27,730 nt of DNA from an uncultured Planctomycetia bacterium (GTDB lineage: Bacteria > Omnitrophota > Gorgyraeia > Duberdicusellales > 4484-171). Within the stretch, counting starts at the first letter, position 1. Every line of letters begins with the position of its first letter. Of this stretch, positions 35 through 25,400 are shown in pieces. Made by a program: the position numbers and the translations under genes. The stretch covers positions 1-27,730 of the forward strand of contig CAZBLX010000001.1 of assembly GCA_964492865.1 (NCBI GenBank), read 5' to 3'. A model generated the notes under the pieces. It was not told the origin of the DNA and ran no database searches. It saw only the letters and a list, made by a program, of their open reading frames with translations.

Positions 35-493
35 TTATAATTGAGAAAATACATCCGCCATCTCTATAGCTGCTCTTGCCGCCTCCCTTCCTTTATTACC
101 TTCTTTAGTTCCGGCTCTCTCTATTGCTTGCTCTATTGTATCTGCGGTAATTATTCCATAAATTATAGGAATTTTATAATTTAAAGAAAGATTAGCAATC
201 CCTTTAGTAACTTCAGAGGCAAGAAAATCAAAATGAGGCGTATCTCCTCTTATTAAAACTCCTAAGGCAATCAAGGCATCATATTTTTTTGAAGCTAACT
301 TAACTAACCCTTGAGGAATTTCAAAAGCACCCGGAACCCATACTACTTCGATATTTTTACCTTCTACTCCCAATTTTTTAAGCTCATCAAGACAACCTTC
401 CAGAAGTTTTAAACTTACAAATTCATTAAATCTTGATATTACAATACCAATTCTTTTTCCTTTTGCCTGATAATTTCCTTTTATCTCTTTCAT
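35..493 (-). CDS. ribH: 6,7-dimethyl-8-ribityllumazine synthase
   Basis: 152 aa with lumazine synthase motifs IVISRFN, VPGAFEIP, GVLIRGDTPHFDF and PIIYGIIT. GGAGG Shine-Dalgarno lies just upstream of the ATG at 493. Confidence 0.96.
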   Translation of the reverse strand: MKEIKGNYQAKGKRIGIVISRFNEFVSLKLLEGCLDELKKLGVEGKNIEVVWVPGAFEIPQGLVKLASKKYDALIALGVLIRGDTPHFDFLASEVTKGIANLSLNYKIPIIYGIITADTIEQAIERAGTKEGNKGREAARAAIEMADVFSQL

Positions 494-2335: not shown

Positions 2336-2364
2336 ATTATATCATAAAATCAAGCGTATGGGAA
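2336..2364 (-). promoter_or_regulatory. Putative sigma70-type promoter for hisI-trpE-ribH
   Basis: On the minus strand: -35 TTCCCA (2364-2359), 17-bp spacer, extended -10 TGa-TATAAT (2344-2336). The -10 ends 19 nt upstream of the hisI ATG. Confidence 0.6.
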
Positions 2365-2501
2365 ACACTTTCCTATCAAAACAATACCTGCTAAAATCAG
2401 ATAAAAATTTGACAAAAAGCAACCTTTTAGAGAAAATATATTTAGGTAGTTTTATAGAGTGTAAAATTTTAATAAAGTTTTTTAAAAAGATGGAGGTAAA
2501 A

Positions 2502-4499: not shown

Positions 4500-7400
4500 T
4501 TACCAAGGATTGTTTTGACGAACTGTTTCTTTCAACGATGTAATAACCTGTAATTTTTCTATTTCTCTTTTTTCTTCTGACTCAATGATTACTTCAAAAG
4601 TAGAACTTAAATCTCTGTTTGCTTCTCTTTCTCCTCCATCAAAAAGAGGTTTTATTCTTTCCTCAAAGTATTCTTTGTTATTATATTCATCAGCAAAAAA
4701 GTTAGCTATTTTTTCTTTGATAAGAAAAGTATAAATCTCTTTTGCAATCCAATTAAAATCTTCTTCTAATTTAGCATCAACTCTTGTGGAAAGAACTGCC
4801 TCTGTTCCTGAAAATCTTACCAGTGTCCATCCTTTATCTTTAAAGAATATCTTTATTCCATCTATATCTGAATAACCAAAACTTCTTTCTCTGGCAAATT
4901 CAATCAACATCTTTTTAACTTCCTTCTTTATAATCTTCAGATTACCTTTGTATTTAGATAATAAGAATTCATGATAAGGAGGTCTTATATCAGGGCTGAA
5001 ATGCCATGAAGGTAATTTATTGATAAGCTTTTCTGTATTCCAATTTACCTCTTTTAAAGCCAAAAGTAAAAGTAAGCTTGCCTGAATTGAATCATCAAAA
5101 AATCCATTTCTTCCAAACCAAGAAGGATACATATGAGCTGATGCTTCAGCACCAAATACAGCACCTGTCTCTCTCATCTTCTTTTTTATATTGGCATGCC
5201 CTGTTTTAAATGTTACAGGAATTCCTCCCAATTCTTCAATCTTTTTAATAATACAGTCACTCATCTTTACATCCACTACTATCTTTGCTTTGGGGAATTC
5301 TTTCAATATTCTTTCTACAAATGTGCCCAAAATATGTTCTCCCTGAAAATCAAATCTTCTCTTTTTAATTTGAGCTACAGCACCAATTCTATCTCCATCT
5401 CCATCAATCCCTATTGCTATATGAGCATCTACCTCTTTTAGTTTCTCGTAAGCCTGATCCATATTCTTCTTTACCGTGGGGTCAGGAAGGTGAGCAGGAA
5501 ATCTTCCGTCAGGTTTCATATTTATTCCTACAACTTCTGCTCCTAATCTTTCTAAAACTTCTTTTAGAGCCTGGCCTGCTGTTCCATTTGCTGGATCAAT
5601 TACTACCTTTAAACCTTTAAGAGGTAAACCTTGCTTTTTAATCTTTTCTTCAACAAATTCATCTGAACTATCAACTAACTCTTTATATGAATATTTCCTC
5701 TGCAAACTTAACCATTCACTTGCTCCTTTTGCCCAACAGGAAGCAATCACCATATTTACATACTTCTTTAATATTTTTTCTGAATTTTCTCTAATTAAAT
5801 TGGCTTTTCTTTTAAATCCTACAAATTCTTGAGTATCTAAGCTCTTTTTGGCATATTCGGAAATCTTTTTTATCTCCTCAGTTGTAGGATTTCTCTGGCC
5901 CAATTTATCCTTTATCACTACTTTAAATCCATTCTCTCGAGGAGGATTATGAGAGGCAGTAACCATTATTCCTAAATCGGAATCAAAATAAAGAGTAGCG
6001 AAGTAAAGGATAGGGGTGGTAACTAAACCTATATCAATCACATCTATACCTAAATTTAACAAATTCTCTATTATTCTTTTTGCAATCCTTTCTGAAGAAA
6101 ACCGTGCATCTTTTCCTACAACACAGAGTAATTTATCTTTCTTATAAAACTCTTTCTGGGACTTAATCAAACCTTTTACCCAGGCATCTATAACTTCAAG
6201 AGTAAGGTATTTTTCTGCATCAGGAGCTCGCCAATCATAACTACGCGTAATAAAATCTATTCTCTCCTTATTTGTATAATCTCTTCCTCCATCTACCTCT
6301 TGTTTTTCTTGAGGAAAAACTATTCTGACAAAAGAATCTAAATTATCAAATGCTGAATATTTTTCTTTCTCAATTTCCAAAAATTCAAAAGTTAAATCTC
6401 TCAAAATAGAAAACCATCTCTTTAAATCATCAGCACAAAAAATTTCTCCCTTCCATTCACAACAAATATATTTATGATACAAACCTTCCTCTTCAACAAC
6501 ACCTCCTATATAAGAAGATATTTCTTCTTCTAAAGTAGAGAGATTTAAAATTAAAGAAAGTGTTTCTATCCAAGCTTCTGGAAAGAAAAAAGAAAAATAC
6601 TCTTCAGCTTTTTTTAAAGTTTTTCCTGTCTGAGAAGTGGCATCAATTATTAAAATTCTTAAAGGATTATTTAAGGAATTTTTTAATAAAGCAATTTCTT
6701 TTTTTATCTTCTCCAGATTCTTTTTATCTTCATTTATAAGATGAATTTCAGGAGCAAGAATTTGAGCCTGAGGTATATTTAAAAACTTAGACAAAATCTC
6801 ATAAACTATAATTAAAGGCCAGGCTTCTGTTCCTATAAATACACAAAGTTGAGGGAAAAATTCATCTTCTTTTATCTTTCTCAGCGCTTGATACATATAA
6901 AAAGGAACTCTTTCTTTCTTAAGAGTGAATATTTCGCCTCCACCATATTCTCTTCCTATTTTTATCTCTATATAGAAATCTTCATCAGGAATTTTTATAA
7001 ATTCTTGCAGATTTCTTCCTCCATCTCTTCTTTCAAAATTATTTAAAAATCCTCTTAAAATCTCATCTATCTTTTCTCTCTTTACAATCCTCACTCTATT
7101 CTGCAAATCTGTAGGCAGAAGTCTTTTTTCTCCACAAAAAAAGCTATATTTTCCCACTTTTAACATAGAGATATCATTTTTACTATCCCCAAAAACTGCT
7201 ATTTCATCTTCAGGTATCTTGTAAAAATCTAAAAAGTCTTTTACTGCTTCCTTTTTAGAAACTAAAGAGATATCTATAGCTACACTGGAGTAGGTAATCT
7301 TGAATTTTCTAAGAGAGTCTATATTCCTCAATCTCTTTTTGACTAACTTCGCCAGTTCCTTCATTAAATATTTTTCCTCAAAAAATTTAACTGTTACCAT

Positions 7401-10400
7401 AGAAATCTTAGGATAAGCTTTTATTATTAAGTTTTCTCCTCTCTTTACCAAGATTTCAGCCTCTTTTATTAACAAATTCCAATCTTCTCTTTTTATCTCT
7501 TCTAAACTTTCTCCAATCTCTTTTATAATCTTTTTTTTCTCTTCATAAGAACTAAATTTGCTATGCTTTATATCTACTTTTAAATTACCTTCTTCATCAA
7601 AATATCCCCAGACACTGCCCATCTCACTCAAAAAGAAAACTTTTTTCTTCCTGCGAATATCTTGAGGTAATCTTTCTCCTACCAACTCCTCCAAAGATTT
7701 AAGAGACTGTCCACTCACTATTACAAAAAATATGTCTTTCCTTACCAATTCTGATATTAACTCTATTTTCTTCTTTCCTAAAGGTATGGATGCTTTTTCT
7801 AAAGTATCATCATAATCAGTAAATATTGCTTTTATTCTGCCCCCATCTTTTAAAATCCTTTTTCTTCCTCTTCTTTCTGACTCAATATCTTTAACTACTT
7901 TCTCTAAAACTTCTTCTTTTATATCTGGTTCAATCTCTCTAATTATTTCAGGAAAATCTACTATCTCTCCTATCTCTTCATATTCTCTCTTCAGTCTTCT
8001 TGCTTCATTTCTTAATCTTCTGAAATATCTCTTTGCTATCTCATCTGCAGAAAATTTCAACCAGCTAACACTTAAATACGGTGAACCAATAACTACACCT
8101 TTTTTCTCTAATTTCTTTCTTTTCTCTTCTAAATCTGCAAATGTAATCCCATTTTCTGCGATAATCTTAATAAGTTTCCTCAATCGGGAAGTAGTCATCT
8201 TTATTTTAAATAAAGAAAATACTCTTAAAATGTCTTCTCGTTTGAGTTTTAAATGTTCATTTTCTTTTAAAAATTTCTCCAGAGGGTCTTCTGCCTTTAT
8301 CTTTTCTTCTATTTTCTGAATCAATTCTTCTATTTCTGAAGAATCAGAATACTTCCTTAATCTTTTTAACTTTCTTAATGCTCTTTTAAGCTTACCTTCT
8401 TTTATCCAGTTTTCTGCTTTTTTAAATTCTCTTCTTACCATCTCTTCTCTGTTTGCTTCCTCCAGAAAAACTTTTTTAGAACTTCTAAACATCTTTTTTT
8501 CTTGTGCTCTCTTTTCCTCAATTACCTTTATTTCTCTGCCCATTATCTTACTAATAATTTCCTCCCACGAAACTCCTCTTTTTTTCTTTATATCTAAAAG
8601 GGTTCTATATTCCTCAAGATACTGTCTTCTAAATCTTACTATGTCAAATACAGAAGAATCTCCTATAAATTCTTCTACTGCTTTTTTATATTTTGGCTTT
8701 TTTACTTCTTCTTTTATCTCTATCTCTTCCTCTTTTTTACCTACTATATCAGCAATAATTTTTTCTAAAGAAATTCCTTTCTTTCTTTCTATTCGTCGTA
8801 TAGTTCTGCATTCTTCAGGATATGACCTTCTAAACTCAGTAATATTAAATACATTTGAATCACCCATAAATTCTTTTACCGCTTTCTTATACTTCACCTC
8901 TTTTATTTTTTTCTCATACTCACATAAAGAATTCAGGGTAGGAAGAAATCCTTTCTCTATCCAGCTTGCTTCTAATCTATATCTTCTCAGTATACGACTG
9001 GTAACTTCACCTTTTTCCTGAGCTTTCTTTAAATCAGATAAACTTTTATAACCTAATATATTGGCTATAAAAAGCCAGGCTTTATATTGATTATGGATAT
9101 CCTTCCAATAGTTAGAAGAAATCTTTTTTAAACAGAACCAAGCAGCTTCTCTGAATACAGGGTTTTTCTTCACATAATTATGCGACTTATAAATTTCAAA
9201 AATCATTCCTTTAAATCGAGCAATTATTCCTCCCAGATGCATCTTATAAAATTCATCACGTCCAGGATAAAAGATATTCTTCTCGATCATCATATCTACC
9301 AACTTCTTTAAAGGAGTTTTCTTTCCTATTAAATCTAAAAATTCCCCAGGCAATGTTTTTCTTAGAAGCCATTCTAAAGCTTTCTCTTCTTTTTCTCTAT
9401 CCCAGCTTATATCTTTTATCACTAACCAGAATACTCTCTCCAGCAAAGGATAGTCTTTGTCAATCTCTGCTTCCTTTAGAATTTTTAAATAATCCAGTTC
9501 ATTCCTTTCTTGATAATAGTTTTTCAATCCAAAAAGACCAAAATTTACAAAACTTCTATAGCCAAAACATCTTAAATCATTTTCAATCAAATATCTTTCT
9601 GCTTCCTCTAAACTTATCCTTTTCTCTTTTAAGTTTTGAGAAAGCTTTATAAAATCCTTTGCTACTTTGCCAAATAACCATCTTATTGCTTTTTTGCGCA
9701 TCTTTATATTATCCCACTTTGTCTCTTTTAATAACCAAGGGGCTGTTTTCAAAACAGGATCCCATCTCTCAAGTTCAGTAACTTTTATAATCCATTCATA
9801 GTTCTTATCTCTTAAAAAAGAAAACTTTCTTTGTAATTCCCTAAAGGTTGGGTATCTTATCCTATTTGACAAGACAAAATTTTCCAAATCTTCATAATTT
9901 ATTTTTCCTTGATGATATTTTTCTATTTTTTCTTTATATTCTTGAGGCAATCTCTTTAAAATATATTCTTTAAGCTTAATTATTCTTTCTTCCTCTTTTC
10001 CTCCATCTTTAATAAATCCTTTCCCATTTCTATTTTTCTCCGCAAAAATCTTTAACAATCCTAATTTTTCTGTGACAGACTTAACATGAAGAAGCTGGGT
10101 GAGTTTAGGAATTCTATAGAAGAAAGAATTGGTGAATTTAAAATCTCTATCCTTAAATGAATTATTGAGCTCCTCATCAGACAAACCGTTATTATTCTTT
10201 CTATCCTTATTTTTATCAATCTTATTAAGCGAAATAGATAATTTCGTTTCTTTCCTCCCTCTGAAAGAAGAAAGTATGGCACTATTTCCATCTATGAAAC
10301 CTGAAATTCCCCCATCTTTTTTTTCCAACTCACGGGACACCAGAAACCTTATCCATGCATTATTAATTCTATTTTTAATCTCCTCAGGCTTATTAACATC

Positions 10401-13400
10401 CAACAATTCCTTTGATAAACAGCGCCAAACCTTGGTGTATCGAGGGTTAATAAAAAGTTCAGCGAAAGAATCGCGGGATATTTCATATAATCTCTTTATA
10501 AAACTCTTATCTTCTTCCTCTAAAGAATTGCAATCTCTGACAAATTTAAAAAAATCATTTTTTGCTTTTTTCTGCCAAGGCTGAAATTCCATAAACCAAA
10601 TTACGCCTCTTTTAGCAGAAAGGTATATAGCATTACTCAAAGTATTTGGTCCACGAACTACTATGGGCAATTCGCATAGTGAAAACAACTCATCAAATCT
10701 CTCTTTTTCTAAAGTTGTAGGAATAGAGATTACACTTATCTTATGACCTGTCGTTTTTGGAGAGATTTTAATACCAAAAATCGTTTCCCAAGGAACTTCA
10801 TAAACATTATAGTTACCTTTCTCAACCAAATTTTTAAATGTCTCATACTCATCAAAACCCCCTTTTCCAACTCTAAACACAAAAATAGTTAAATCCTCGT
10901 CTTTAAACTCCCTACTGCTTTCTCTTGCCTTCTCCAATGCGGAAAAATAAATCTCATACATTGAAAAATAAGCAAAACTATAAATCACACCCCATTTACT
11001 TTTTGTCAATTTATCTAATTCTTTGTCCTCAAGAGAAGGTAATAATTTTTCTAATAATTCCTTTTTTCTTTCTTTAATCTTCTTAGCCCCTTTAGGTAAG
11101 CTGTCTACCTTTTTCATAAATTCCTCATCTACAGGAGCTACCCCTACACATTTCTGACCAAATCCCCAGCTTAGGATACTATTTGAACTTCTCTCTTCAA
11201 AATAAGAAGACCCCTCAATTCCAAACTCATAGAGTTCAATTACCGGAGCTTCTTTCTCCAGTTTCGAAATAAAAGGCGAAATAATTTGTTCGTTTAGATC
11301 AATAGAAGCTGGTCTATAAACAATAATAAGAGAAACAGCTGAAGGCTTTAAGATTTCTTCCTTCATATATTGCCACGTATCTTTTGCATTTAACCAGATA
11401 AATTCCACATCTTCTGTGCTGAAAGTTTTTTTGTCAATGAAAGTTGCTTTCTTTATTTCTTTTATCAAATTTGATTTTAGAGCTTCTGAGATCGACGACA
11501 TTCTTAAGGCAGATATAAAATCATCACGGTTATGAAGTATCACTTTAATTTCTTTTTCAGAATAAATCTTTCTTAACATTTTTATAGTATTCAATATAAA
11601 TGGTATATCTCCACTTCCTCCTAACCATGATACAGGAGGAACGATAAAAACAATCTTTTTAAAATCCCTTTCTGATAAACTTTTTTCAATTTCTTCTCGG
11701 ATAAACATTGTCTTAAAAGATTTGAGTGCTTCCTTATTATCGTGCTTTTTCTTTTCTCCAAACGATTTTAAAACTCCTTTATAAAGATTAAAAATATAGT
11801 GACTACTACTAACTTTCTCTGCTGCCTCTTCTAAAACTTCCAAAGCTTTCCTGTCAAGAGGAGATACAGAGCTTTTAACTATAGAACTCAGCATCATAGC
11901 TATTACATCACGATATTTTCCTAAAGGATATTCTTCTAAAAAATCTCTTAAGGTAAAAATAACACTTTTACTAATGCAATTTGGATAAAACTCAATGAAG
12001 TGTAATAGACGACTTTCTGCTATGTGATAGGTAAATATATTTAAATTTTTTGTTTTAAGTAAACTAATAAGAAAAAGAATCTTTAACGGGAGAGGTTTTT
12101 TTTCTAAAATCTCTTCTATGGAATGTAATTGCCTCCGATATAACTCTGTATCTATATCTTCTATCTTCAATTTCTTTAGCTTCCCTATCTCTCTCAATAA
12201 TATTTCTCTTTCTTCCTCTCCGAAATATTTACGATAAATTTCTACAAATTCATCCAAATCATTAGGAATAATATTAAAAGTATCCTTAGAGAAATTGAGG
12301 CAATTTTCTTCTACTCCTTTCCCTCCATCATAATTATTCCCTCTAAATCTTTCTCGTATTTGTTCAAAAGAAAGTTCAGGATTTTCCTCAAGCATATAAG
12401 CAACACTTATAGCAACCCGAGGTGCAAGAAATGAATTTCCAACTCTTTTTTCTCCTTTAAATTCAACCTCTCCATAACGATTATCAAAATACAGTATATG
12501 AGCATCTTTTTCCTCATAGATTATTTTTTCTTTATTAATTTCTCTACTTACAGCAAGAACCTCTTTAAATGCAGCAGGATAACTTATCCTTCCATAAGCA
12601 TATTCATTGTTAGCAGCTGCAATTATTATTACGCCTTTTCGATAAAGTTCCTTAATAATCCTATGAACACTTTCCCATTTTTGTGGATCAGGATTGCTGT
12701 GTCCAGCAGTAATTACAACTATTACTCTTTTTCCAGATTTTTCAACATAATCTTTTATGATTAATAATGCTTCATTAAGAGAATCAACATATTCTTTTTC
12801 TGAGGCACATATTGTCCTAACGCGAATACTTCCTAACTCAAATAAACTCTTCTTAAGAATTTCCTCTACAATCTCAGCATGTTCCTCATTATCTCCTCTT
12901 ACATTGATAATCGCTACACTACCCTCTTTATGTCGAAGCCATTTAATTTGATTAATATTGCTTAATGATGCGGGTTGATGAATTTTTATGCTTGGTTTTC
13001 TTACATTTTTAAAGAATAATCTACAAAACAAAAATTTGGTGAATACAATAAAGATAATCTTTCTTAAAAACAAAAAAACTTGTTTTAAACTGTGGACAAA
13101 AGATGGGAAGAAGGAACTGAAAGAGATTATCTTAGCTAAAAGATTCTTCAAGAATGTTGTTAACTTTAAAGGCGGGGCTCTCAAAAAGAAATTTTTAAGG
13201 TAAATTAATAATAATCTTTTGAAAGAATAACTGGTTAAGAATTTGCTCCTTTCCTTTCTTGAAAATCTTAACCAATCGGTTATTATAAATGCAAATATAT
13301 TTTCCTTGACAGAGTTATATAAATATGTTATAGTTTGTTTGCCATGCCTGCCAATGTTAAACAAATAATTCAGGATTTGATTATCCCTGAGTTTAGAACT

Positions 13401-16400
13401 CTTTCTGCTGAAATTAAAAGATTGGATGAGAAGGTTGAGAACGTAAGAAGTGAATTTGAAGAAAAGTTTAAGAGATTGGATGAGAAGATTGAAAGTATAA
13501 GAAATGAGTTTGAAGCTAACTTTAGAAGGATTGATTCTGAAATTGATCTCCTTAAAGAAGAAATTAAGTTTTTGCGTGAAGAAATAAAGATTTCTATAAA
13601 CATTCATGAAAGACTTGCCGCACTTGAGGCAAAAATAAACAAATGAATTTTTGAATGAAATATTAGACTCCTTATCGAACAAACCACCATCATTCTTTCT
13701 ATCTTGGCTATTTTTAATCTCATCAGCAGTAAATAAGTCTTGAGATATATTTTCTTTTCTTGTTATTCTCTTAGCCTTTTGAATTCTGCCTCTTATCTTA
13801 CTACCAAAATTATCGATGTGTAGAGAAAGTAGATAACTAATTAAAAGAACCACTATTCCTGACTCTAAACCTAATGGTGCCATTATCCAAAGAGGTAAAT
13901 CGCCAGTATATCCTGTCAAATTCAACAAAGCGTATACTCCTGCTTTAAAATCTCCATAGTTTATTAACTTAAAGGCAGTACAGAAAGCAAGGGAGGCAAC
14001 ATAAATTACTTGCAACATTCCTATTCCGACTATCCAATAGTTATCAGTCCTTTTGCCTCTTCTAACTAACCAGAAACCTAATGTAGCATTATAAATGTTT
14101 GGCACAAAATTATTCAAAATCAAACCTAACTGTTTTGGTAAAGCAAAAGGTAAAATTGGCTGTTCAAGACGAACATATCTAACGGAAAAATCAGGAATAC
14201 TCTCTCTTTCAACAAAAGGAAGATATCTTGTTATAACTCCTCCTGGGTCCAGCCAAGATGGACAACGCACTTTATCTAACACATAATCAGGAAAGGTGAG
14301 GGTATTAAAAAGAGCATGAAGAAGTTCATGAGGTAAACTTATCAATATACACAAAGGTGAAAGCCCTGCTATCAGCATACCTAAAATTGTTTTAACTCCG
14401 CGCCGATCTGGAGGAAAAATCTCAATCATTCTTTGGTCTAAGTAGTTTAAGCAGTTCTTGGCAGAGTTAAAAAGACCTTTAATTACTGAGTAAAGAGAAT
14501 TGAATTCAAAATTTCTCTTTCTTCCTCCATCATTTCCTAAATTATTTAATAAGAAAAGTCGTTTTCTTTCTAATTCACTTAATTTCAATTCTTTTTCTCT
14601 AATCTCTTGTTCTGATTTTTCCAAAATTTTATTTCCTTTCCCTTTAATTACCTCAATAATAACACAAAACATTTTGTGAACTTTTCTCCTTATTTTCTTG
14701 ACAGATAAATATGTTATAGTTTGTTTGCCATGCCTGCCAATGTTAAACAAATAATTCAGGATTTGATTATCCCTGAGTTTAGAACTCTTTCTGCTGAAAT
14801 TAAAAGGAGTGTTCTGGAGTATTTTTAAAAGTTCTGATTTAAATAATTTCCTTCCTCCATCAACTTTATCTGCTGCTATCTTAAAAGACCCCAAATAAAT
14901 ACATTCAACAACATCACTAAACCTTCTGCCCCTTCCAAATGTCCTTTCACTTAATTCTTGTTCTGCCTTCTCATATGGTATACTCTTCTCCTTAGAAAGA
15001 TTACTTATTGCCCTTTGCCAGTAGATTCTGGAATATCTGTATAGTTCGGGTTTTACATAGATCTTTTCAATATATTTTAAAGGTATCTCTATGGGATTCC
15101 ATTCCCTATCATGAATTACCAGATTAGTTTTTCCATCTCCACTATTGTCCGTAATATCAAGATTCCTGAAGTCATTAAGCAGCTCTTTAGTATTTATGAT
15201 AGCAAGCGCTCCCCCCTCCTCAGCAAATTTTAATGGATTTTCCAGATTTCTTCCGATATAAACCCCTTCACCATATGCCTGAACAACTGAAACCTCTGTC
15301 TTATATTTCTCTCTTACCATGGAACCAGATTTTAAAGCCTTGTCTTCTAGGATACCCAATAAATTAATAATTATCGGTAAGTTTTCTCCTGCTGAAATTC
15401 TAATAGTTTTGGCTTTTGTCAAAGAAATACCATGCAGAGCAATATCATCCGGAACCTCGCCATTCTCCAGAAAGTTTTTCAATACTTCTCTGCCATAGTT
15501 CCTACTCTGCAGGAAGTTATAGATTTTATTTATTGTAAAGATCTCCTCAACGTCAGGGTATTTTTTGCATACTGGAGGTAAATCATCTAAATTCTTCTCA
15601 ATTATTGCTCTTAATTTTATCCGCAGATCGGACAGATTCATATATGGCGCTATCGTCCTGACGAGTTTTATCGTATCCTCTATATTCCAGTTTCCTCTTT
15701 CGGCAACATCCGTGACAAGTTTATTCAGATTTGTGCTTAATTTCTTAAGGATACTATCTCTTAGGAATTCGGGTAACTCCAAACCTATACCAAAACTTTG
15801 CCTTAATGCCTTTGAATAGATAAGTGAATCTTCCTCATCTAATTTCAACTCACCCAATGCCTTAGCTCTTACGAAACGAATAGCATCCGCCAGAACTATC
15901 TCTGCAACAGAATACTCAACAGCTGAGAAAGGATGAGGTCTTTCAGGATCAAATATTGAATCTATACCGGAATATATCTTAACTATACCATTCTTTGCAT
16001 AAACTATTGAATTATCTGGATCATAGACCTCAAATCTTTTATTGATTGAATTATAAAATATCTGGATTGCATTTATTCCCAGATCACTCCTGCTTATTGC
16101 GGATGTCTCACCTCTTATATCACCAATCTTCATAGAATTTGAAATTTTTCTAATAACCTTTTCTATTTCCTCAATATTCCTCTCGATAATATCCAAAGGC
16201 AGATATTTACCAAGATATTCATTTATCTTTTCCCTTCTTCTTCTATATAACTCCTCCAGTGCCTCTGGTTCAAATCTCTTTATCTTGTCTTCAAGATCAT
16301 CAAGAATTGATGGAATTGTTATTCTTTCTTCTTTTATCTCCAGTAATGTATTTTTAAACTCCTCGTCTTTAAATCTATCAGCGAATTCTTTTAAAGGAAT

Positions 16401-19400
16401 ATCAATTTTCCTTAAAACGTTATCAAAGTCATGATCCTCATATCTATCAAGTTTGCCAAGAAATACTAAAAGCATGTTTCTTGCAGTTCCAGATGTAATC
16501 CCTATCTCCCATCCATCCTCACTCATCTCTTTAATTCTTTCCAAAACTTCGCTCACCTCTTTAGGAACTCTATCCGAATTCAACCACTCCTCAAATTCTG
16601 CCTTAATTGCATCATTTTCCTCTTCCACTCTTTTTCTCTCTTTTAAAACATCATCTATACTTTTCTCCTGCTTAGCTATCTCAACCAAAGTCTTGCCCCA
16701 AATTCCCTTTTCCAAAGCCTTTTCTATTGTTTTTTTATCTCCTATCCTGAGAGCTTCTCTTATTTTGTCAACCCTGTATGGGGTCAGTTGTCCATGTATA
16801 TAACCCAGATTCGTTGCCTCCTCACCGTATTCAAGATAATCCATTAGATAGACCGGAAACTCTACTCTGTTCAGGCTCCATATGGATTCGTTATTTACCG
16901 GTTTTATTTCTTCTCTTATTAATTTATCCAAAACCTCTAATTCTCTCTCTCTTTTGGAATCCTTCAGATACCTCACTACGGGAACTATCCAGGAGAATTT
17001 ATCTATATTCTTCCCTATTATCTCAAATGTCTTATCATCTGCGGTGAATCTATCCCAGATGTCTCCATATTTTATAATGCTTGTTACTATCCTATCTATC
17101 TCTATTCCCTCAGAAATTAACCTCTTTATCGCTCTTGCGAATAAATACTCCCCAGTTTTTTTATCTCTCTCAAGAACATAGTTTGCAATATCCTCATTTG
17201 ATTCTATGATGGCTAACACCCTTATGAGTTGCACTATAGCATCATTTCTTCTTTTTCTTGTCTCCTCATCCATTAGATTCAAATCGGCATTAAATTTCTC
17301 TATCTCCGGAATAACTATGTCTTTATACAACTTTCTCGTTGGGACGCCCTTCAGTATATTCTTGAATGATAACAAACCCATATATTTTAGAAATTTGTCA
17401 TCCAATTCCCACAGCAGGATATACTTTAGATCTTCTAATGATAAAGTGCTCGTATCAATATTTTCGTATTTATCAAGTTTTGATATATCAAAGAATGCTG
17501 GTTCTCTCATGTAGTTTTCAAAAAACTCACTTGCATTAAGTAGACCGAATATCTTGATAAAATTGATGAAATTTGGATTTACTCCAACAGTCTGTGTCAT
17601 TAATACAAAACCAGTAAATGTTCTGGAAATTGCAGAAGTTATTTCCTCCTTATCACTCACTTCTTCTATATATTTCATACCATTAATGAAGGTTCCGGGA
17701 GCTTTTACGAGCATTTTTCTCGCCTCGCGGAAACGAAGCCAATCTCGCAATACCCTTAATCCTGCTAAACCAATATATCTGGCAATCTTTCCAAGACAGA
17801 GAATATACAGAATATCGAAGAAATTTATCCCTTCTACAGAATATCTTGAAGAGATATAAAATGCGAAATCTATCTCTTCCTTGCCGGCTTCTCTCAGTAT
17901 AGAATCTAAGATTTTAATAAAGTCTTCTTCCTGCAGATCTTTTTGTATATTCTGAACAATTTCTCTTATGTACTTCATATACTTCGGATCACCATCCAAA
18001 GAAGCACATATCGCCTCCATCCTCAACTTTTTATTGAATTCCACTAAATCAGAACGTTTTCTAAATAACTGTATTACTCTTACAAACTCGGGGTACCTTC
18101 CAAATAGCTGTATTGTTCCTACAAATCCATATGGATATCTTAAGGATTTCTCTATATCTTCATCATCAAATTCCCTTAAGTATTTGATACCATCAAGGAA
18201 ACTTTTTAAATCCTCTTTAATCTCCTCTATTGGACATCTGAATATTATATGTAGTTTATACACTCTTGTTAATTTTATTCCATTAATAATGTCTACAAAG
18301 TTGGGAAGTTTCTTAATAGAATTTAGTAGCTCTGATAACCACCATAAACTATAATCACTGTTGCTGAATGCTGTTCTCACATCTTCTGGATTATTCTTAA
18401 CAATATTTATGAATTCTGGAGTGATATCCTTGATGGCAGATATAATTCTATAAAACTCTGATCCCTGATTCTTGAGAATATTCCAGATAATATCCTCACC
18501 CAACATCAGCAAAGCATCAAAGGCATCAAGTAATTCCATAAGTTTTTCTGTGCATTTTAATCCTGACATAAACTCATTAATTGCCTGCCTGAATTCTACA
18601 TTCTTAGATTCAAGTGCCTCTCTTACTTTCTCAATACCAAATCTATTGGCGAATATCAACATAATTAAATGTTCACTTATTCCCTCATCTCTTTCTTTAA
18701 ATCTCTCTCTGACATTTTCCTCAATCCTATTCCTATCTTTTCTTTCTATAACATCTCCGAATTTAAAGAATAACTCTACTGCTTTTTCTTGATAATTCTT
18801 TTTGTTGCTATTCACCCCAAGAATTATCAATCTGTAAATCAGCTCTTTAACTCTGTCAGTAAAACCCATGGGAGAGTAAAATTCCAGTCTACTGTCTGTC
18901 CAGTGATCTACGAAACCATCTATCCTCAAGATTGGGATTAGCAATTCAAGATGTCGCTTTACAAAATTTACCGACTCTTTATCTATAAAAATGCCGGGGG
19001 TTTCTCTAACTAAGTCACTTAAAAAGTTTCTCACTGTTTCATCTTCAATTCCATCCTCTATTCTTTCCACCAGTGCATCAGTAAGTATGGAATCGACCAC
19101 TGTGTTAAATGTTATTTCCTTTCCACTTTCTATCAATTCTCTAATTTTCTTTCTTATCTCATCATCACTTACCTCAAGTCTCTTCTTTAAGACCCACTTT
19201 TGCTTTAGTCTCTCCCTTATCCTAATGATGAGTCTTCTAATCTCCATCAACCTCTCTCTAATCTCCTCAATCCGCTCCTTCCTAACCCCCTCCCTCTCAA
19301 GTTTTCTCAGAACTCTATCTACATCTCTTGCCCTTTTCAAGTAGATTTCTGTAAGTATAGCTCTTGCTAATCTACCTCTCTCATCTTTTAAAGGTGAAGT

Positions 19401-22400
19401 CATAAGCAATTCAGCAATATTCTCATCACTTATACCCTCAACTCTCAATTCTTTTATCTTTTCTAATTGATACTCTTTTATCTCTGAAATGACATCTCTC
19501 TTTTTATTCTTGGTTTCTTCATGTATCTGAGATAGGCCCTTTAATGAGAAAGTTAACTTGCTTTGCTCTCCACCATCATTCTTTCTATCCTGGCTACTTT
19601 CCTCAATCTCATCAAGTAAAGTAAGCTCTTTATTTTTCCATCTTATCCCTATCCAAGAGGTATACTCTCCATCAATAACTTTGTAATTTTTCTCTAATAA
19701 CTTTTCTTTCACAAAATCTTCCCATTTTCCCTCTTTGCTTAAGTAATCTATATAAATCCTAAATAAAATACTTAACAATTCTCCTCCCTCTTCATTTCTT
19801 AAAAAAGTAGGCAAATCCTTAAGATGAAAGAAAATCGCCCATTTAGGAAAATCTTTTCTTAACCATAACTCCTCCATTATAAGTCTTTTCTTTTTTACTC
19901 TATATTGAGAAAATATTAATGTGTTTAAACCCGCTCCTTCAAAAATTAATCCTCCTTCTTTCACTATTCCACTTATAGAAGAAAGTATCTTGTAAGCTTG
20001 TTTGTGAGAATAATGCATTAATACATTAAAAATTCTTGCCCAATCAACTTTTTCTTTTTCCCAATTCTTATCTAAATCTCTCAAATCTGCTTTTATAAAT
20101 TCTAAATTATTCAATCCTTTTTCTTTTTTAACAACTTCATAGGGTTTAAAAATAATCTTCTTTTCTTCAAAAGAGTCACTTTCTGTTTCTTTTTCATCAA
20201 AAAATATAAGTTCTGCTAATTCTTCTCTATTCTCTATTACTTCCAAAAGAGAAAAGCTATCTTTTAGAACAGAGATCTTTAAAAAACCTATCAAATTTTT
20301 ATTTTCATCCTTTAAAACGATATAATCTCCTTTCTTTACTACTAAATAAGCTACTAAATAAGGAATAACTTTATCCACCCCATATACTTTAAGTTGAGGA
20401 AATTTTTCCGCAAATTCAACAGTAGTAAAAGGGGTGGGTAATCCTGTTTTTCTATCCCAAGCCATACCTATTCCCAAATCAGCAAAAGCTCCTTTTTGAG
20501 GAGAAAATCTTTTCCTAAACCAGTCATCAAAATCTTTAAGTCTTTTCGGATAGGTAGTTAGAGGAATACCTCCATCTGAATTTATCCTTCTCCATTTATG
20601 AAAATAAATAAAAGGACGGCGAGAAATCTCTTTCTCTATACGCCTGCGATAATGAGAAAAGCCTTTCTCCTTTATAATTTGCTTAATATCCTGCCAAGAG
20701 ACATCTCCATACAAATACCAAAGATTAAGATAAACTTGTTTTCTCTCTTCATCTCCCAAGAATTTCAACCATTCCAAAACTTTTCTACTTTTTACTTTTT
20801 CTCTTATCATCTTAACCACACCTATCTTCTCTAAATCGTATAGAATTTTTACTTCTCTTCTATCTAATAGCTCTTCACAAATAATATCTTTTTCTCCAAA
20901 TAATCTTCTCAAAATCTTCTCTATCCTCGTATTTATCTTTCTTCCTCTCTCTTTCTGTCTTAACCTTTCCTTCTCAGTTTTTTTCTTGTAGAATCCTTTA
21001 TCTCTCTCTATACAAGCTTTTGTTTTCCTTTCTATCTTCTTCTCTCTTCTGCTTTTCTGCCGACTCTTTCCTTTTTTTCTGGTAAAAAACCTTTTTCCTT
21101 TTTGTAAAGACAAAATCTCTCCTTGAGGAAGATGAGCAGAGATAAATTCTACCTCACCTTCTTGATTAAAAATCTCTACTTCTATCTCTCTATTAGCTAA
21201 CGCAGCTCTTTTAACTTTTTTACCAGCAAATCTTATAGTTCCCGTCTTTCCTACCCAGAATCTTTTAAGCAAAAGTTTTCCTTGAGAAAGTTTCTTTAAA
21301 GTTTCCTTAGATAATTTTTGATAAAACACGCCTATTAAATTATCTTCCTTCCAAATCTGAGCAAAGATTATCCTTTTCTGAGAAAGAAGAACTTCTATAG
21401 GCTTACCTTCATAAAGAAGAACATTTGCATTTTTATATCTAAACTCTCTTCCTAATTCTGCCCATATTCTACCTGCAAAGATAAGCTCTCCTCTTTTGCC
21501 TAAGAAAAGATTCTTAATAATAATCCATTTACTTTGAGTTAATATTTCTTTCCTGACACAAGGCAGTTTTAAAGCATCAATTAATAAAATATCTTCCTTC
21601 TTTACTCCTTTATTTAAACTTTCAAATTCCAAAGTTATTTTTTCTATTCTTTTTTTTCTTTTAAAACTTTCCCACAGCTTTTTTAATTGAGGATTTTTCA
21701 AAATAGCATTTCTTACTCTTGTTCTTGAAACTTTTAAATCCTTAGCAATTAAGGTGATTTTACCTTTTTTCTCTATAATCTTTTCCTCCAATCTCTTCTC
21801 AAAAATTCTCTTTTCTTTCTGAAATTGACCTTCTAAAATTTTTCTAAGTAACTTTTTCCCTTCTTCAGTAAGAGTAAAAAGGTATTTTTCTTTTCTTTCC
21901 ACTATTCCTTTTTTGATTAACCGCCACAGAGAAAGATATATATTTTCTCTCTTTCCTCCTAACACCTCTTTTACTTCTTTTCTTATTTCTCCCCAGGAGG
22001 TAATACCTTCAGAGATCAAATAAATAATAAATAGAGTTGACTTAGAATAATGAGTAAGCCTCTCTCTTTCTAACTCCTCTACCTTCTTGAAAAATTCTTT
22101 TCTCCTTTCTTCTCTATCTCTTCCTCCATCTAAATATTTCTCTCCATCATCTTTTTTCCTCTTTTTCTTTAAATATTCCTCAAACCGGGAAGAAGAAAAG
22201 AAATCTTCATAAAATTGTTCAGGAGAAATCTTCTCATCTTCATTCTCCAAATGCTTAATTTTCTCATCATCCTGCTTTTCTACTTTAAAATCCTCTGTTT
22301 CCCTTATCCATTCTTTTATTTTCTCATTCCATAAATATCTACCAGAAGAGACAGGAATTAAAATCTTTTGTCTTACCATCCACTCAAAACTAGGAATAAG

Positions 22401-25400
22401 TCCTTTTACTTTTATCTTTCTTAATTTAGCAAATTCTTTCTCTGCCAAGTTCCTGTTCAAAAATCCTTGAGGAAATTTCTTCCCTAAAAGTTTTAATGCT
22501 TCACGATATGGAGAAAATGTATGCCATAAATCCTCTTCTTTCTCTACTTTGGAAAGCAATTCTTCTTTTATTTTGGGGGGAATTTTACGTTGTCTTATTA
22601 AACGTTTCGCCTTATTATAATTATGCTCCTGGCACAATTTTCTTACTATTTTTTTGACCTCTTCTATTCTTAAATTCTGCAAAATCTCATCAAATAATTG
22701 AGGAAACTTTTTACGATACAAAGCTATAAATTTCTCCACCTCTTCTATCCTGCCCTGAGAAAGCAAAGCATAACATTTCTTTCTTATCTCATCCCTGCTT
22801 TCTTCTTGTCTCTTTCTAACCAGAGAAGTTTTTTCCCTAATAATAGATTTTCTCCTTGCCGAAAGATTATCTTTTTTCTTTATAACTTTTCTTGAAAGCA
22901 ATACTTTTCTTTTTTCTTCCCTTCTCTCTTTTACTTCTACTCCTTTTATCCCTCTTCGATATTTCTCAATTAATTCTTGTAACTCTTGGTTTCTTTTTAT
23001 CATCCCTCTAAGTTTACTTCTTCCTAAACCTAACAAATTAGCCGCTGCAGAAATATTGCCTCCTGTCTCCTCCAAAGCTTTTTTAACCCTTAAGTATAAC
23101 TCCTCTAAAGGAGGATATTTTCCTTTCTTTATCGCTAAAATTATCTCTTCCGCCTGCTTTGTCAGTATATATCCTTCCTTTTTATCTTTCTTTCTCAAAA
23201 ATCCTTTCTCCTCTAATTTTTTCAAATATTGAAAAATCAAATTCTCTCCTTTTCCTAAAAGCTGGGCTATACTGTCTTCGGCAACTCCCATATAATAAAG
23301 AATAAGTATCTTTAAAGCTAAAGAAGATAATTTTCTAAAACCAGCCTCTTCCAACTTCCTACAACCTTCCCATAAAGAATTTAATTCTTTAACAAATTCC
23401 TCCCAATATTTAAACCGTTTTCTTCTTAACCTAATCTCTTTATCATCTATCTTCATCCAATAAGTTACCCCTAAATCCCATGCTTTCTTTAAAGTAAGGG
23501 TACCATCATAAAGAGAGTTGATGAACTCCTCTCCTCTTTTTGTCAAGATTAACTTATTATTCCTTAATTCTATCAATCCCAATTTCTTCATTCTATGAGT
23601 ATGAGTTGTGGAACCAGGAGAGATTAAATCTCTTAAAGGAATACCTCTACTTTTTGCCCATAAAAACTTTACATCATTTTCGGTAACAAGAAGCTTTTCT
23701 TCCCACTTTTTAAATTTAGAAATTAGCCTTTTTGCATCTTCCTGAAAAGTTCTTCCTCTTCCTGTCAAAACAGAAATTAAATCCTCTACACTGGCTTGAT
23801 TTCTTAATACTTTTTCTAAAACTATCTCTAATTCTTCATTCAAATAATAATCGCCAAATTTTTCCTTCTGGAAAATTAGCCCTCTATTTAAAAGTTTTAA
23901 AAAGCGCTTCTCCACTATTTTCTTTCCTGATTTCTGGGTATATATACCAGTTATATCTGTAACTAAGGATGGTTTTCTTTTTCCTTTTTCTATACAGATA
24001 AGAATAGCTAAATCTTTCTCATCAAACTCCCTAGGTAACTTTGAAGAAAGTCCTTTCAATATTTTAATTTCCTTCTCCCTCAATCCTAATCCTAATCTTA
24101 GATTCTTCCAGCTGAATCCAATAAAACGAGGAGGAAGTCTCAAGCTTACCAATAATTCATTCACTTCCCATTTACTTTTAAGATAATTTTCTAAAATTCT
24201 TCTGACTGACTCCTTTAAAATGAATCTATCCTCCTTCTGAATAAGAAAATCAGTGTTTTTATCTATTTTTTCTAAAGCATCTTTTATTTCCCAACCAGCC
24301 AACTTTCCTTTCAGTAAATCTTTAAGCTCATCAAAACTTAAATTACCTTTTTCTGCTAAAGTAAGTAATACTAAGAAATCATTTTTGGTTAACAACATTC
24401 CTTTATAAAAAGGAAATCTTTCTATCTTTGCTATCTGCTCCTTTTTCCCTCCATCCTGAGTAATTATCTCTTTTGTTAAATCCTGCATAATTGCCTTTGC
24501 TACTTTCTGATTTATCCAAGGCTGACCTGTGGTAAAAATGGCTATCAAATCAGAAGTATTTAAAATTCGAAGAGTATATGGTTTAAGCTCCTCATAATTT
24601 CTCCATACATCTTTAAAAGAAAGCTTTCCTCCTCTATCTTTCTGGGTAAAAACATCTAAATCTAAGGAGGCTGCTTTGGGCAAATATTGACAAACCTTTA
24701 TTTCCTCTTTTAAACTAACTACTTTTTCAAAAGAAGCAGTTTCAAATCTTACTATCTCTTCAAATTCCTTCTGAAGCATCTTCAGTTTTTCAAATTTAAC
24801 AGGAGAAGTTATCCAGAAAATAGAAGAAGAAAAATAAAAAGAAGTCGCAGAAAGAAATTCTCCTACTCCATAACTAAGCAAATGTCTGATTTTTTCTTCT
24901 TTATTTTTTAACCAGAAATTAGATAAATACTTTACTGAAGGAAAAACCCAATCAGAATGCTGGTCTATATGGAAAAGAATGAAATCTTTTATCTCTTCCT
25001 CTAAAAGAAATACATTCAAAAGATTATGAACATCTGCCAAAAATACCTTTTTATCTCCCAACTCTATCAAAATATATCTGTCTTTACCTAATCTATAGTA
25101 ATTCTTTCCTACTTTTATCCTAAAAACTTTTTCTCCTAACTCTAAATTCTTTAAATCCTTATCTAAAAGAGGAAGTTTTCTTTGTTGAATAATCACCCTT
25201 CCTCCGTCTTTCTCTTTTATCTTTTGCTCAAGCAGTTTAAGTGCTTCTTGATAAACTTTTTTATTTATGTTCTCCTCTTTAAAACTTCTCCACAACTTAT
25301 ATCTTACCTCCTCCTCACCTAATATAAGAAAGGCTTTAGTTAAAAATTTAACTGGTTTGCTATAATCAGGAGAGGTATGCTGCATCTTTAATCTTTTCAC

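What the first reader, a model, noticed from the sequence alone, without database searches (positions are those of the whole stretch)
10066..10205. Third, eroded copy of the antisense cassette with a frame-preserving net deletion
Both ends match the full cassette at 13300-13703: 15/18 over the -35 region (GTGACA instead of TTGACA) and 41/53 over the 3' flank and linker. The span is 140 bp versus 404 bp, a difference of 264 bp or exactly 88 codons. The remaining in-register mini-ORF keeps coiled-coil character (EFKISI versus EIKISI), and the linker has decayed from KNDGG to KNNNG. The cassette therefore looks old and repeatedly reused, and has decayed only in ways that keep the giant frame open.
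Basis: partly seen in the sequence, partly recalled or inferred. Interest (0 to 1): 0.7.

Follow-up and report, generated by a model that had tools for sequence, protein, structure and literature searches.

The report
Dead antisense gene relic in giant ORF
This stretch is most likely the decayed remnant of a small gene that sits backwards inside a giant bacterial (Omnitrophota) gene; it now does nothing except serve as filler, yet it has been kept free of stop codons so that the giant gene can still be read through it.

Summary
For the 3' flank, 0 of 500 shuffles reach the score. The 33 nt that exclude the linker also give 0 of 1000. The 5' flank gives 1 of 1000. The middle "mini-ORF" is not demonstrably homologous, and part of the 3' match is only the giant protein's recurring linker, which also occurs at 19570-19630 without a cassette.

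The window comes from an Omnitrophota bacterium. Its giant ORF (more than 7,742 codons) is a chain of enzyme-sized modules joined by "DGG" linkers. The cassette is a real 100-aa coiled-coil gene with a consensus promoter, nested codon-for-codon antisense in that ORF. In seven divergent loci this gene has no TTA, CTA or TCA codons (0/103, against 23/75 in stand-alone homologues), so the giant frame stays open.

Copy C has no -10 box. It differs from a 96%-identical relative at the neutral rate (10 nonsynonymous to 3 synonymous changes) but has no stop (P=0.006). I read it as a dead relic kept as a stop-free spacer.

The parts
10066..10083 (+). Relic of the cassette's -35 region (GTGACA in place of TTGACA). 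No -10 hexamer follows at 16-18 nt.
   Evidence: 15/18 to 13300-13317. The promoter scan finds no site here, while copy A scores 11/12. L001 carries a further change in the box, GTGGCA.
10045..10060 (+). Possible relic of the sequence upstream of the promoter. It is offset by 17 nt relative to the -35 block.
   Evidence: 14/16 to 13262-13277. It contributes to the 5'-flank chain test, 1 of 1000. It is not significant alone.
10086..10160 (+). 24-codon mini-ORF (MKKLGEFRNSIEERIGEFKISILK), codon-aligned with the giant frame and purine-rich. Probably what remains of the small gene's body.
   Evidence: About 61% purine, like the intact ORF (measured over 10087-10160). Homology not significant. Single-target HMM p about 0.01, and 0.002 for the L001 variant with KRLDE. 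4 nonsynonymous and 0 synonymous differences from L001 in the + frame.
10153..10185 (+). Cassette-specific 3' flank, the sequence that in copy A lies between the small gene's stop codon and the linker.
   Evidence: 25/33 to 13651-13683; 0 of 1000 shuffles reach the score.
10185..10205 (-). Degenerate module linker DRKNNNG in the giant frame (DRKNDGG in copy A).
   Evidence: The same linker sequence is at 13684-13704 and 19570-19590. It is identical in L001.
9999..10184 (-). Unit S14 of the giant ORF. It is a 62-codon spacer that is the antisense reading of copy C, and it ends in a KDGG linker (9999-10007).
   Evidence: No Pfam match. Window against L001: 15/186 nt differ (8.1%), the same as 4-fold sites in neighbouring S15 (9.1%), with 10 nonsynonymous to 3 synonymous codon changes. 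Stop-free in 0.6% of shuffles.
13306..13334 (+). Promoter of the intact cassette A: TTGACA, 17 nt, TATAGT, with TG before the -10.
   Evidence: Best site in 9800-15000, 11/12. TTGACA-17-TATAxT is clear in six of the seven nested loci; in L016 only the -35 box was seen directly.
13344..13646 (+). Intact nested small gene, a 100-aa protein predicted to be a single long helix.
   Evidence: 23 homologues. Predicted as one 97-residue helix, pLDDT 93.7. Purifying selection acts on the + frame. No TTA, CTA or TCA codons.
13647..13704 (.). 3' flank of cassette A plus the DRKNDGG linker codons of the giant frame.
14693..14806 (+). Copy B: the promoter with a spacer shortened by 6 nt (11 nt) plus the first 30 codons. 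102 nt are 100% identical to copy A.
   Evidence: (HMM E 5e-14).
4500..27728 (-). Giant open reading frame. It has 7,662 codons from the first start codon and is open for 7,742 codons to the window end. It consists of about 19 modules separated by DGG linkers.
19570..19630 (-). Paralogous linker and module tail (SSQDRKNDGG) with no cassette. This shows that the linker match is not specific to the cassette.
   Evidence: (D20).

Best explanation
10066-10205 is a non-functional relic of a small antisense gene cassette, and an old paralogue of the intact copy at 13300-13703 within the same giant gene.

The intact cassette is an independent gene. It has a consensus sigma-70 promoter and a 100-codon ORF for a long-helix protein. 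It lies on the opposite strand, codon-aligned, inside an Omnitrophota multi-enzyme giant ORF. The giant frame reads through it because the small gene uses no TTA, CTA or TCA codons.

In copy C, deletions removed the -10 box, the start region and most of the ORF. What remains is translated only as a 62-residue filler (unit S14) between a degenerate linker (DRKNNNG) and a KDGG linker. It drifts at the neutral rate. The one detectable constraint is that no stop codon or net frameshift may arise in the giant frame.

Shown here: homology of both flanks, loss of the promoter, neutral substitution pattern, improbable absence of stops, and conservation of the nested arrangement.

Inferred: that the giant ORF is translated through this region, that the filler is discarded after cleavage at the DGG linkers, and that the gene body once lay between the two flanks.
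For: - Flank homology.
- Purine-strand switch confined to about 10087-10160.
- No promoter-like site at copy C, against 11/12 for copy A.
- L001 (96.4% identical) has copy C at the same place with no indel, but 8.1% divergence and a 10:3 nonsynonymous-to-synonymous ratio, against 31:59, 15:18 and 13:15 in neighbouring modules. Four-fold sites in S15 diverge by 9.1%.
- The mini-ORF has 4 nonsynonymous and 0 synonymous changes.
- Stop-free probability is 0.006 for S14, and 0 of 5000 for S13+S14, for 12990-13682 and for copy B's unit.
- The small gene is real. It has 23 homologues, including stand-alone genes. Substitutions fall at + codon positions 1/2/3 as 499/244/860. The synonymous-to-nonsynonymous ratio is 542:529 in the + frame but 137:934 in the giant frame.
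- Seven nested loci (GC 0.32-0.50) have 0/103 antisense-stop codons, against 23/75 in four stand-alone homologues (Fisher p 2e-10). The antisense frame is open to at least one contig end in all seven and across the whole contig in six, including 2,405 codons in L012.
- A second relic sits in another giant ORF (L002 1933-1968).
- The structure recurs in independent assemblies (L021 at 99.8%, L003 at 98%, L001).
Against: - The central 69 nt are not significantly similar to the small gene, and the family HMM misses them in an unbiased search.
- A cassette profile that excludes the window's copy A does not detect copy C, so the case rests on similarity to a single paralogue.
- The 5'-flank test region was chosen after seeing the match.
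- At protein level in the giant frame, S14 and S13 show no significant similarity to the corresponding parts next to copy A.
- Only one informative relative (L001) covers copy C, so the neutral-rate estimate rests on 15 substitutions.
- There are no expression data for either strand.
Confidence: 0.7

Rival explanations
1. Duplicated inter-module spacer, never a gene. What was copied is only the giant protein's linker with a little flanking filler, and the resemblance to the -35 region and the purine-rich middle are coincidences of AT-rich sequence.
For: The linker and tail also occur at 19570-19630 without a cassette. The middle is not significant. The profile built without copy A misses copy C. 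There is no protein-level similarity in the giant frame.
Against: The 33 nt beyond the linker, which in copy A lie between the small gene's stop and the linker, match at 0 of 1000; the 19570 copy aligns with copy A only from the linker onward (13684-13741) and not over these 33 nt. The colinear 5' match covers the -35 box (1 of 1000). The purine skew switches strand exactly between the two flanks. The L001 variant of the mini-ORF reads KRLDE, the family's repeat motif.
Confidence: 0.18
2. Copy C is still functional, either as a source of a 24-aa micro-protein or as an antisense RNA or weak promoter that modulates expression of the giant gene.
For: An ATG-initiated ORF is intact in both the window and L001. 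It is in register with the giant frame.
Against: There is no -10 element, and the -35 box is degraded further in L001. There are 4 nonsynonymous and 0 synonymous changes in the mini-ORF over 4% genomic divergence. Overall divergence equals the neutral rate. There is no Rfam match.
Confidence: 0.06
3. Chance resemblance in low-complexity AT-rich DNA, with no homology at all.
For: The window is 31% GC and repeat-like short matches are common. Many two-copy 'families' at 70-80% identity appear.
Against: The 3' flank score lies 11.7 sd above dinucleotide shuffles. The chain score beats 489 of 489 real windows of the same gene.
Confidence: 0.03

Closest known systems
Omnitrophota very long proteins, 'multi-enzyme metabolic cluster' class (Nielsen & Lui 2026, bioRxiv 10.64898/2026.06.07.730766; West-Roberts et al. 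2023, bioRxiv 10.1101/2023.11.21.568195)
   Same: The host ORF fits this class. The taxon is Omnitrophota (TrpE is 79% identical to Candidatus Omnitrophica proteins). The frame is open for more than 7,700 codons. It is tiled by unrelated enzyme domains (PGM/PMM, HAD, methyltransferase, S8 peptidase, HTH). West-Roberts et al. suspected cleavage into several products.
   Different: A text search of both papers finds no mention of antisense or nested genes, of linker motifs, or of DGG. West-Roberts et al. state that the cleavage points are unknown. The nested small gene, its relics and the DGG junctions are not described there.
Long antisense overlapping genes in bacteria (for example olg1/olg2 of Pseudomonas aeruginosa, PMC8850804; EHEC antisense OLGs, PMC9927249)
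   Same: A complete ORF lies antisense inside another ORF, with its own promoter. The frame relation is the codon-aligned one, in which only TTA, CTA and TCA give antisense stops.
   Different: In those cases the nested ORF is evolutionarily young and the host gene is the conserved one. Here the nested gene is the old, conserved one with stand-alone homologues. The host frame shows no amino-acid constraint over it, only avoidance of stops. Copy C is a dead remnant of such a gene, not an overlapping gene.
Ordinary gene relics (pseudogene fragments) in bacterial genomes
   Same: Loss of the promoter, internal deletions and a neutral substitution rate.
   Different: A normal relic accumulates stops and frameshifts in all frames. 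This one is barred from doing so in one antisense frame because it lies inside a continuous giant ORF.
Proteolytically processed polyproteins with Gly-Gly junctions (viral polyproteins; ubiquitin-like/JAB and double-glycine C39 peptidase systems). This comparison comes from my own knowledge.
   Same: There is a short conserved junction ending in GG at module boundaries. A filler segment between two junctions would be released and discarded.
   Different: No cleavage has been shown. No C39 or JAB domain was detected in this window, only an S8 fragment. The junction next to copy C has decayed to NNG.

Membership tests
Small long-helix protein family (MPxN[IV]KQIIQDLIIPEF ... KRLDEK repeats ... 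IHERLAALEAK; unnamed) | Significant match to the family profile across the N-terminal motif, the repeats and the C-terminal motif | tested here: not met
   Copy C's mini-ORF is not reported at E<=10 in the six-frame HMM search, and gives only p about 0.01 when tested alone. Copy A matches at E 5e-48 and copy B at E 5e-14 (N-terminal third).
Sigma-70 promoter of the cassette | TTGACA-like and TATAAT-like hexamers 16-18 nt apart | tested here: not met
   There is no site at 10066-10110 in the scan. Copy A scores 11/12 with TG. Copy C has GTGACA and no -10 box.
Gene relic / pseudogene | Flank homology to an intact paralogue together with loss of the functional elements | tested here: met
   for the flanks. 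for the losses.
Gene relic / pseudogene | Evolves at the neutral rate in every frame | tested here: met
   8.1% at all sites against 9.1% at 4-fold sites of S15. 10:3 nonsynonymous-to-synonymous in the giant frame and 4:0 in the + frame. The counts are small and come from one relative.
Antisense overlapping gene pair (applies to the intact cassette A) | Both frames open beyond chance | tested here: met
   0 antisense stops in 7 nested loci (0/103 forbidden codons) against 23/75 in stand-alone homologues. Shuffle P is 0.012 for the ORF and 0 of 5000 for 12990-13682.
Antisense overlapping gene pair (applies to the intact cassette A) | Purifying selection on the amino-acid sequence of both products | tested here: not met
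   Only the small gene's frame is constrained: 542:529 synonymous-to-nonsynonymous against 137:934 in the giant frame.
Antisense overlapping gene pair (applies to the intact cassette A) | Both strands transcribed and translated | not testable with these tools
   No expression data are available.
Omnitrophota multi-enzyme giant proteins | Omnitrophota origin | tested here: met
   All named top TrpE hits are Candidatus Omnitrophica/Omnitrophota, the best at 79%.
Omnitrophota multi-enzyme giant proteins | Many distinct enzyme Pfams tile one polypeptide | tested here: met
   HTH_8, methyltransferase, Peptidase_S8, Hydrolase_3 and PGM_PMM I-IV.
Omnitrophota multi-enzyme giant proteins | Length of at least 10,000 aa (the threshold used by Nielsen & Lui) | tested here: inconclusive
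   The frame is open for 7,742 codons and runs off the window end.
Processed polyprotein | Conserved junction motif at module boundaries | tested here: met
   DGG occurs 17 times against 1.03 expected. Its codons vary synonymously. The HAD and PGM domains begin 4-13 residues after a DGG. In L001 an extra module is inserted exactly between two DGGs.
Processed polyprotein | Demonstrated cleavage and a cognate protease | not testable with these tools
   Only a partial S8 match (E 9e-6) and an HELLH membrane module with no Pfam hit.
Transposable element (IS/MITE-like cassette) | Terminal inverted repeats, target-site duplication or a transposase | tested here: not met
   No inverted-repeat pair among those listed flanks any of the three copies (25 of 44 pairs shown), and no transposase domain was found. 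I had no empty site to compare.

The most novel reading that the evidence does not exclude
Omnitrophota multi-enzyme giant ORFs are stop-free polyprotein genes, and the only way to place an independently expressed gene inside one is on the opposite strand. The small long-helix gene is such a resident. It carries its own conserved consensus promoter and has been purged of TTA, CTA and TCA codons so that the host frame survives. It is copied within and between giant genes as a linker-bounded module, and when a copy dies it persists as a stop-free neutral spacer like 10066-10205. The DGG junctions would then be the long-sought cleavage points of these giant proteins. Relics like this one would be direct evidence that selection acts on uninterrupted translation as such, even across meaningless sequence.
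Probability: 0.35. Interest if true: 0.8.

Novelty: new variant of a known kind. Interest (0 to 1): 0.5.

Why it matters
On its own, copy C is a dead gene fragment. Its value is as a natural experiment. It is sequence with no detectable amino-acid constraint in any frame, evolving at the neutral rate, yet it has stayed free of stops and net frameshifts in one frame. That is hard to explain unless ribosomes must read through it. This bears on an open question about Omnitrophota giant genes: whether they are really translated as one unit, and where they are cut.

Three features give concrete, testable handles on how these proteins are made and processed, and none of them is mentioned in the two papers I checked:
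- the intact nested gene, found in seven loci with 0/103 forbidden codons;
- the conserved promoter of that gene;
- the DGG junctions.

Tried and rejected
- Searching the 5.8-billion-protein database with the giant-frame (antisense) translation of cassette A found nothing. Gene callers evidently split the giant ORF at the cassette, as in L002 and L016.
- The search for related loci with the membrane module S10 in GTDB genomes found nothing. With the small-protein alignment, GTDB gave one locus (L012), JGI metagenomes gave three short ones and IMG/VR gave none. The source species is not among the GTDB representatives searched.
- I considered that DGG linkers (GAT GGA GG) might be Shine-Dalgarno or re-initiation sites. 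I rejected this because the codons vary synonymously (GGG, GGT, GAC) and no start codon follows at a consistent distance.
- I considered an alternative genetic code or composition as the reason for the open frame. I rejected this because the flanking genes end normally, the other frames are full of stops, and the cassette regions are T-rich on the giant strand.
- Rfam found no match. Pfam and NCBIfam found no family for the small protein or the filler units.
- Protein-level comparison of S13 and S14 with the region next to copy A in the giant frame was not significant.
- L021 is 99.8% identical, too close to be informative. L023, a related species, lacks the giant gene at this position, so it offers no orthologous site.
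- I did not run a fold search on the small protein, because the model is a single helix.
Full report
**Setting.** The window is 31% GC. It carries trpE (426-1988, minus strand), a chemoreceptor gene (2358-4334, plus strand) and one enormous open frame on the minus strand, from 4500 to the window end. TrpE's best named relatives are all Candidatus Omnitrophota, up to 79% identical. The giant frame has 7,662 codons from its first start codon and is open for 7,742 codons up to position 27728, so the gene continues beyond the window. It is a chain of modules that includes Fis-type HTH, a methyltransferase, a subtilase fragment, a HAD phosphatase and a complete phosphoglucomutase/phosphomannomutase. 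This matches the 'multi-enzyme metabolic cluster' class of Omnitrophota very long proteins (10.64898/2026.06.07.730766).

**DGG linkers.** The modules are separated by a short junction ending in Asp-Gly-Gly. DGG occurs 17 times against 1.03 expected, and it is by far the most enriched tripeptide. Its codons vary synonymously, so the motif is selected at the protein level. The HAD and PGM domains begin 4-13 residues after a DGG.

**The cassette.** At 13306-13334 on the plus strand there is a near-perfect sigma-70 promoter (TTGACA, 17 nt, TATAGT, with an upstream TG). It is the best site in the 5.2 kb scanned. Nine bases later comes a 100-codon ORF (13344-13646), whose product is predicted to be one uninterrupted 97-residue helix (pLDDT 93.7).

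This is a real gene family. The search found 23 homologues. The distant ones are ordinary stand-alone genes, one between rplU and rpmA and others in toxin-antitoxin-rich islands. The ORF is codon-aligned antisense to the giant frame, so only TTA, CTA and TCA codons would put a stop in the giant frame, and it has none.

I examined seven divergent members that lie inside large antisense frames: the window, L002, L013, L016, L017, L018 and L012, with GC from 0.32 to 0.50 and down to 41% protein identity.
- Together they have 0 forbidden codons among 103 Leu and Ser codons. Four stand-alone homologues have 23 among 75 (Fisher p 2e-10, with the caveat of shared ancestry). TTA alone makes up 46% of Leu codons elsewhere in the window.
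- In all seven the antisense frame is open to at least one contig end, and in six it spans the whole contig, including all 2,405 codons of the 7.2-kb contig L012. In L017 it stops about 108 nt beyond the small gene's start.
- Differences among the seven genes fall at + codon positions 1/2/3 as 499/244/860. The synonymous-to-nonsynonymous ratio is 542:529 in the small gene's frame but 137:934 in the giant frame.

So the small protein is the constrained product, and the giant frame over it is constrained only to stay open. The promoter TTGACA-17-TATAxT is clearly visible upstream in six of the seven loci; in L016 only the -35 box was seen directly.

| Region tested | Result |
|---|---|
| 3' flank, 10153-10215 against 13651-13716 | score 50 against 21.1 +/- 2.5; 0 of 500 shuffles |
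| 3' flank without linker, 10153-10185 (25/33) | 0 of 1000 |
| 5' flank, 10030-10086 | 1 of 1000 |
| Colinear chain, 10030-10152 | beats 489 of 489 real windows; 11 of 1000 shuffles reach it |
| Middle, 10084-10152 | 210 of 1000 (not significant) |

About 20 of the 3' bases encode the giant protein's linker DRKN(D/N)(G/N)G. That linker also occurs, with its module tail, at 19570-19630 where there is no cassette. The linker match is therefore generic. The 33 nt between the linker and the position of the small gene's stop codon are specific to the cassette and are significant on their own.

The middle is the weak part. The family HMM does not report the mini-ORF in a six-frame search. Tested as a single prior target, the window's version gives p about 0.01. 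The L001 version, which reads MKRLDEF and so carries the family's KRLDE repeat motif, gives p about 0.002. A DNA profile of four cassettes detects copy C only weakly (E 0.31; E 0.004 in L001). A profile built without the window's copy A does not detect it at all. The similarity is thus to this genome's own copy A, which indicates a duplication within the gene. Independent of alignment, the plus strand of about 10087-10160 is 61% purine, like the intact ORF, while the flanks are 28-39%.

**What copy C is now.** It has GTGACA where the -35 box was and nothing resembling a -10 box at the right spacing, and the promoter scan finds no site. In the giant frame it forms a 62-codon unit (S14, 9999-10184). 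This unit lies between a degenerate linker (DRKNNNG, 10185-10205) and an intact KDGG (9999-10007). It has no domain match.

L001, a contig 96.4% identical to the window over 5.1 kb, has the same unit at the same place with no indel. The two versions differ at 15 of 186 positions (8.1%). That equals the divergence at four-fold degenerate sites in the adjacent module S15 (9.1%). The changes are 10 nonsynonymous to 3 synonymous in the giant frame, compared with 31:59, 15:18 and 13:15 in neighbouring modules. In the mini-ORF's own frame there are 4 nonsynonymous and 0 synonymous changes. L001 also carries a further change inside the former -35 box.

So neither strand shows amino-acid constraint. 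Yet only 0.6% of dinucleotide shuffles of S14 are stop-free in the giant frame. For S13+S14, for the 231 codons of filler at copy A and for copy B's unit, 0 of 5000 shuffles are stop-free. The simplest reading is a dead gene fragment on which the only remaining selection is that the giant frame must not be interrupted.

**History.**
- Copy C predates the split between the window and L001. It differs from copy A's flanks by about 25%, against about 4% between the strains.
- Copy B (14693-14806) is the promoter with a spacer shortened by 6 nt, plus the first 30 codons. It is 100% identical to copy A over 102 nt, so it is recent or was recently homogenised.
- L002, a different giant ORF from another contig, has an intact nested gene and also a relic of its own at 1933-1968 (nhmmer E 1e-6, HMM E 0.002). 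That relic is likewise bounded by an 'NRKNNG' and a DGG.
- In L001 the cassette's promoter and first 30 codons are fused to a PD-(D/E)XK fragment, and the giant frame begins there.
- The breakpoints of copy B (13420) and of L001 (13434), and the start of copy C's mini-ORF, all lie at or near the KRLDEK repeat. This suggests recombination at that repeat, but it is an observation and not a tested claim.
- L001 also has a 381-residue extra module inserted exactly between two DGG junctions, so modules are gained and lost in frame at the linkers.

The multiple-of-3 net deletion is what any surviving allele must show, so it is not separate evidence. One upstream block (10045-10060 against 13262-13277) is offset by 17 nt from the -35 block. 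If it is homologous, the decay included compensated frameshifts.

**How it probably works (inference).** A giant ORF without stops can hold an independently expressed gene only on the opposite strand. The small gene does exactly that, at the price of giving up three codons. Its antisense reading is carried in the polyprotein as filler between junctions. If the DGG junctions are cleavage sites, the filler is released and lost. West-Roberts et al. suspected cleavage of Omnitrophota giant proteins but could not locate the sites (10.1101/2023.11.21.568195). When a copy of the small gene dies, the filler may drift freely but may not acquire a stop, and this is the state of copy C. I could not test transcription, translation or cleavage.

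**Known or new.** Giant multi-enzyme ORFs in Omnitrophota are described. Text searches of the two relevant papers find no mention of antisense genes, linkers or DGG. Antisense overlapping genes are known in other bacteria, but there the nested ORF is the young one. Here the nested gene is old and conserved, and the host frame is merely kept open. Copy C itself is a gene relic, an ordinary kind of object in an unusual situation.

**Verdict.** My best explanation, at about 0.7 confidence, is a non-functional relic kept as a stop-free neutral spacer. The main rival, at about 0.18, is a duplicated spacer that never held the gene.

Noticed in passing
window 4500-27728 (-), e.g. 10007, 13691, 14531, 14861, 19577: The tripeptide DGG occurs 17 times in the giant ORF against 1.03 expected, always at module boundaries and usually preceded by K or N and followed by R or K. 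Its codons vary synonymously. The HAD and PGM domains begin 4-13 residues after it. These are candidate cleavage sites of a polyprotein.
   Followed up: partly
L001 ~753-1872, corresponding to window ~7847: A 96%-identical relative has an extra module of about 381 residues, TPR-like by eye, inserted exactly between two DGG linkers where the window has one. Modules are therefore gained or lost in frame at the linkers.
   Followed up: partly
window 13319-13420 and 14705-14806: Copies A and B share 102 nt at 100% identity, although strain variants differ by 2-12% in this stretch. They lie 1386 nt (462 codons) apart and bracket a membrane module with an HELLH motif. This suggests recent gene conversion, or a substrate for in-frame deletion.
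   Followed up: no
L001 7015-7503 (protein P0020): The cassette's promoter and first 30 codons are fused to a PD-(D/E)XK nuclease fragment, and the giant frame opens inside this hybrid. The downstream half of the giant gene therefore exists without the upstream half in that strain, and it still shows purifying selection.
   Followed up: partly
window 13420/13434 and 10089-10103; L001 copy C: The breakpoints of copy B and of the L001 hybrid, and the start of copy C's mini-ORF, all fall at or near the small gene's KRLDEK repeat. The number of these repeats also varies among family members. This may be a recombination hotspot.
   Followed up: no
L002 1933-1968: A different giant ORF carries its own short relic of the small gene (the IIPEFR segment). 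It is bounded by 'NRKNNG' and DGG, the same decayed-linker pattern as in copy C.
   Followed up: partly
L012 (CAYMKG010000052.1, labelled Planctomycetales MAG), gene 3794-4021: A 41%-identical homologue with a TTGACA-17-TATACT promoter is nested antisense in a frame that is open across the whole 7.2-kb contig (2,405 codons, 43% GC). That frame has no DGG motif. By eye it contains HELGH and JAMM-like (HNHP...SHDED) motifs.
   Followed up: partly
window 27456-27725: An in-frame 111-nt (37-residue) tandem repeat, 2.4 copies at 81% identity, lies at the upstream end of the giant frame, which runs off the window.
   Followed up: no
window 13335-13343 and equivalents in L002, L013: In at least three loci of the AT-rich group (window, L002, L013) only 9 nt separate the -10 box from the ATG and there is no Shine-Dalgarno sequence, which suggests a leaderless mRNA. 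The GC-richer relatives (L012, L017, L018) have a longer leader with AGGAG.
   Followed up: no
window 10200-10799 against L001: Divergence between the two strains is mosaic: 0 differences in 600 nt, next to blocks at 4-8%. This indicates recent recombination within the giant gene.
   Followed up: no
L023 1-1000: A related species (its TrpE falls in the same 90%-identity cluster as the window's) has a small secreted-looking protein next to the chemoreceptor gene, not the giant gene. The giant gene is therefore accessory or variable at this locus.
   Followed up: partly
window 10308-12320 (module S12): Its domain of about 430 residues has only 22 relatives among 1.84 billion representative proteins. 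Some are stand-alone proteins of about 500 aa and others are embedded in proteins of 3,000-5,800 aa.
   Followed up: partly
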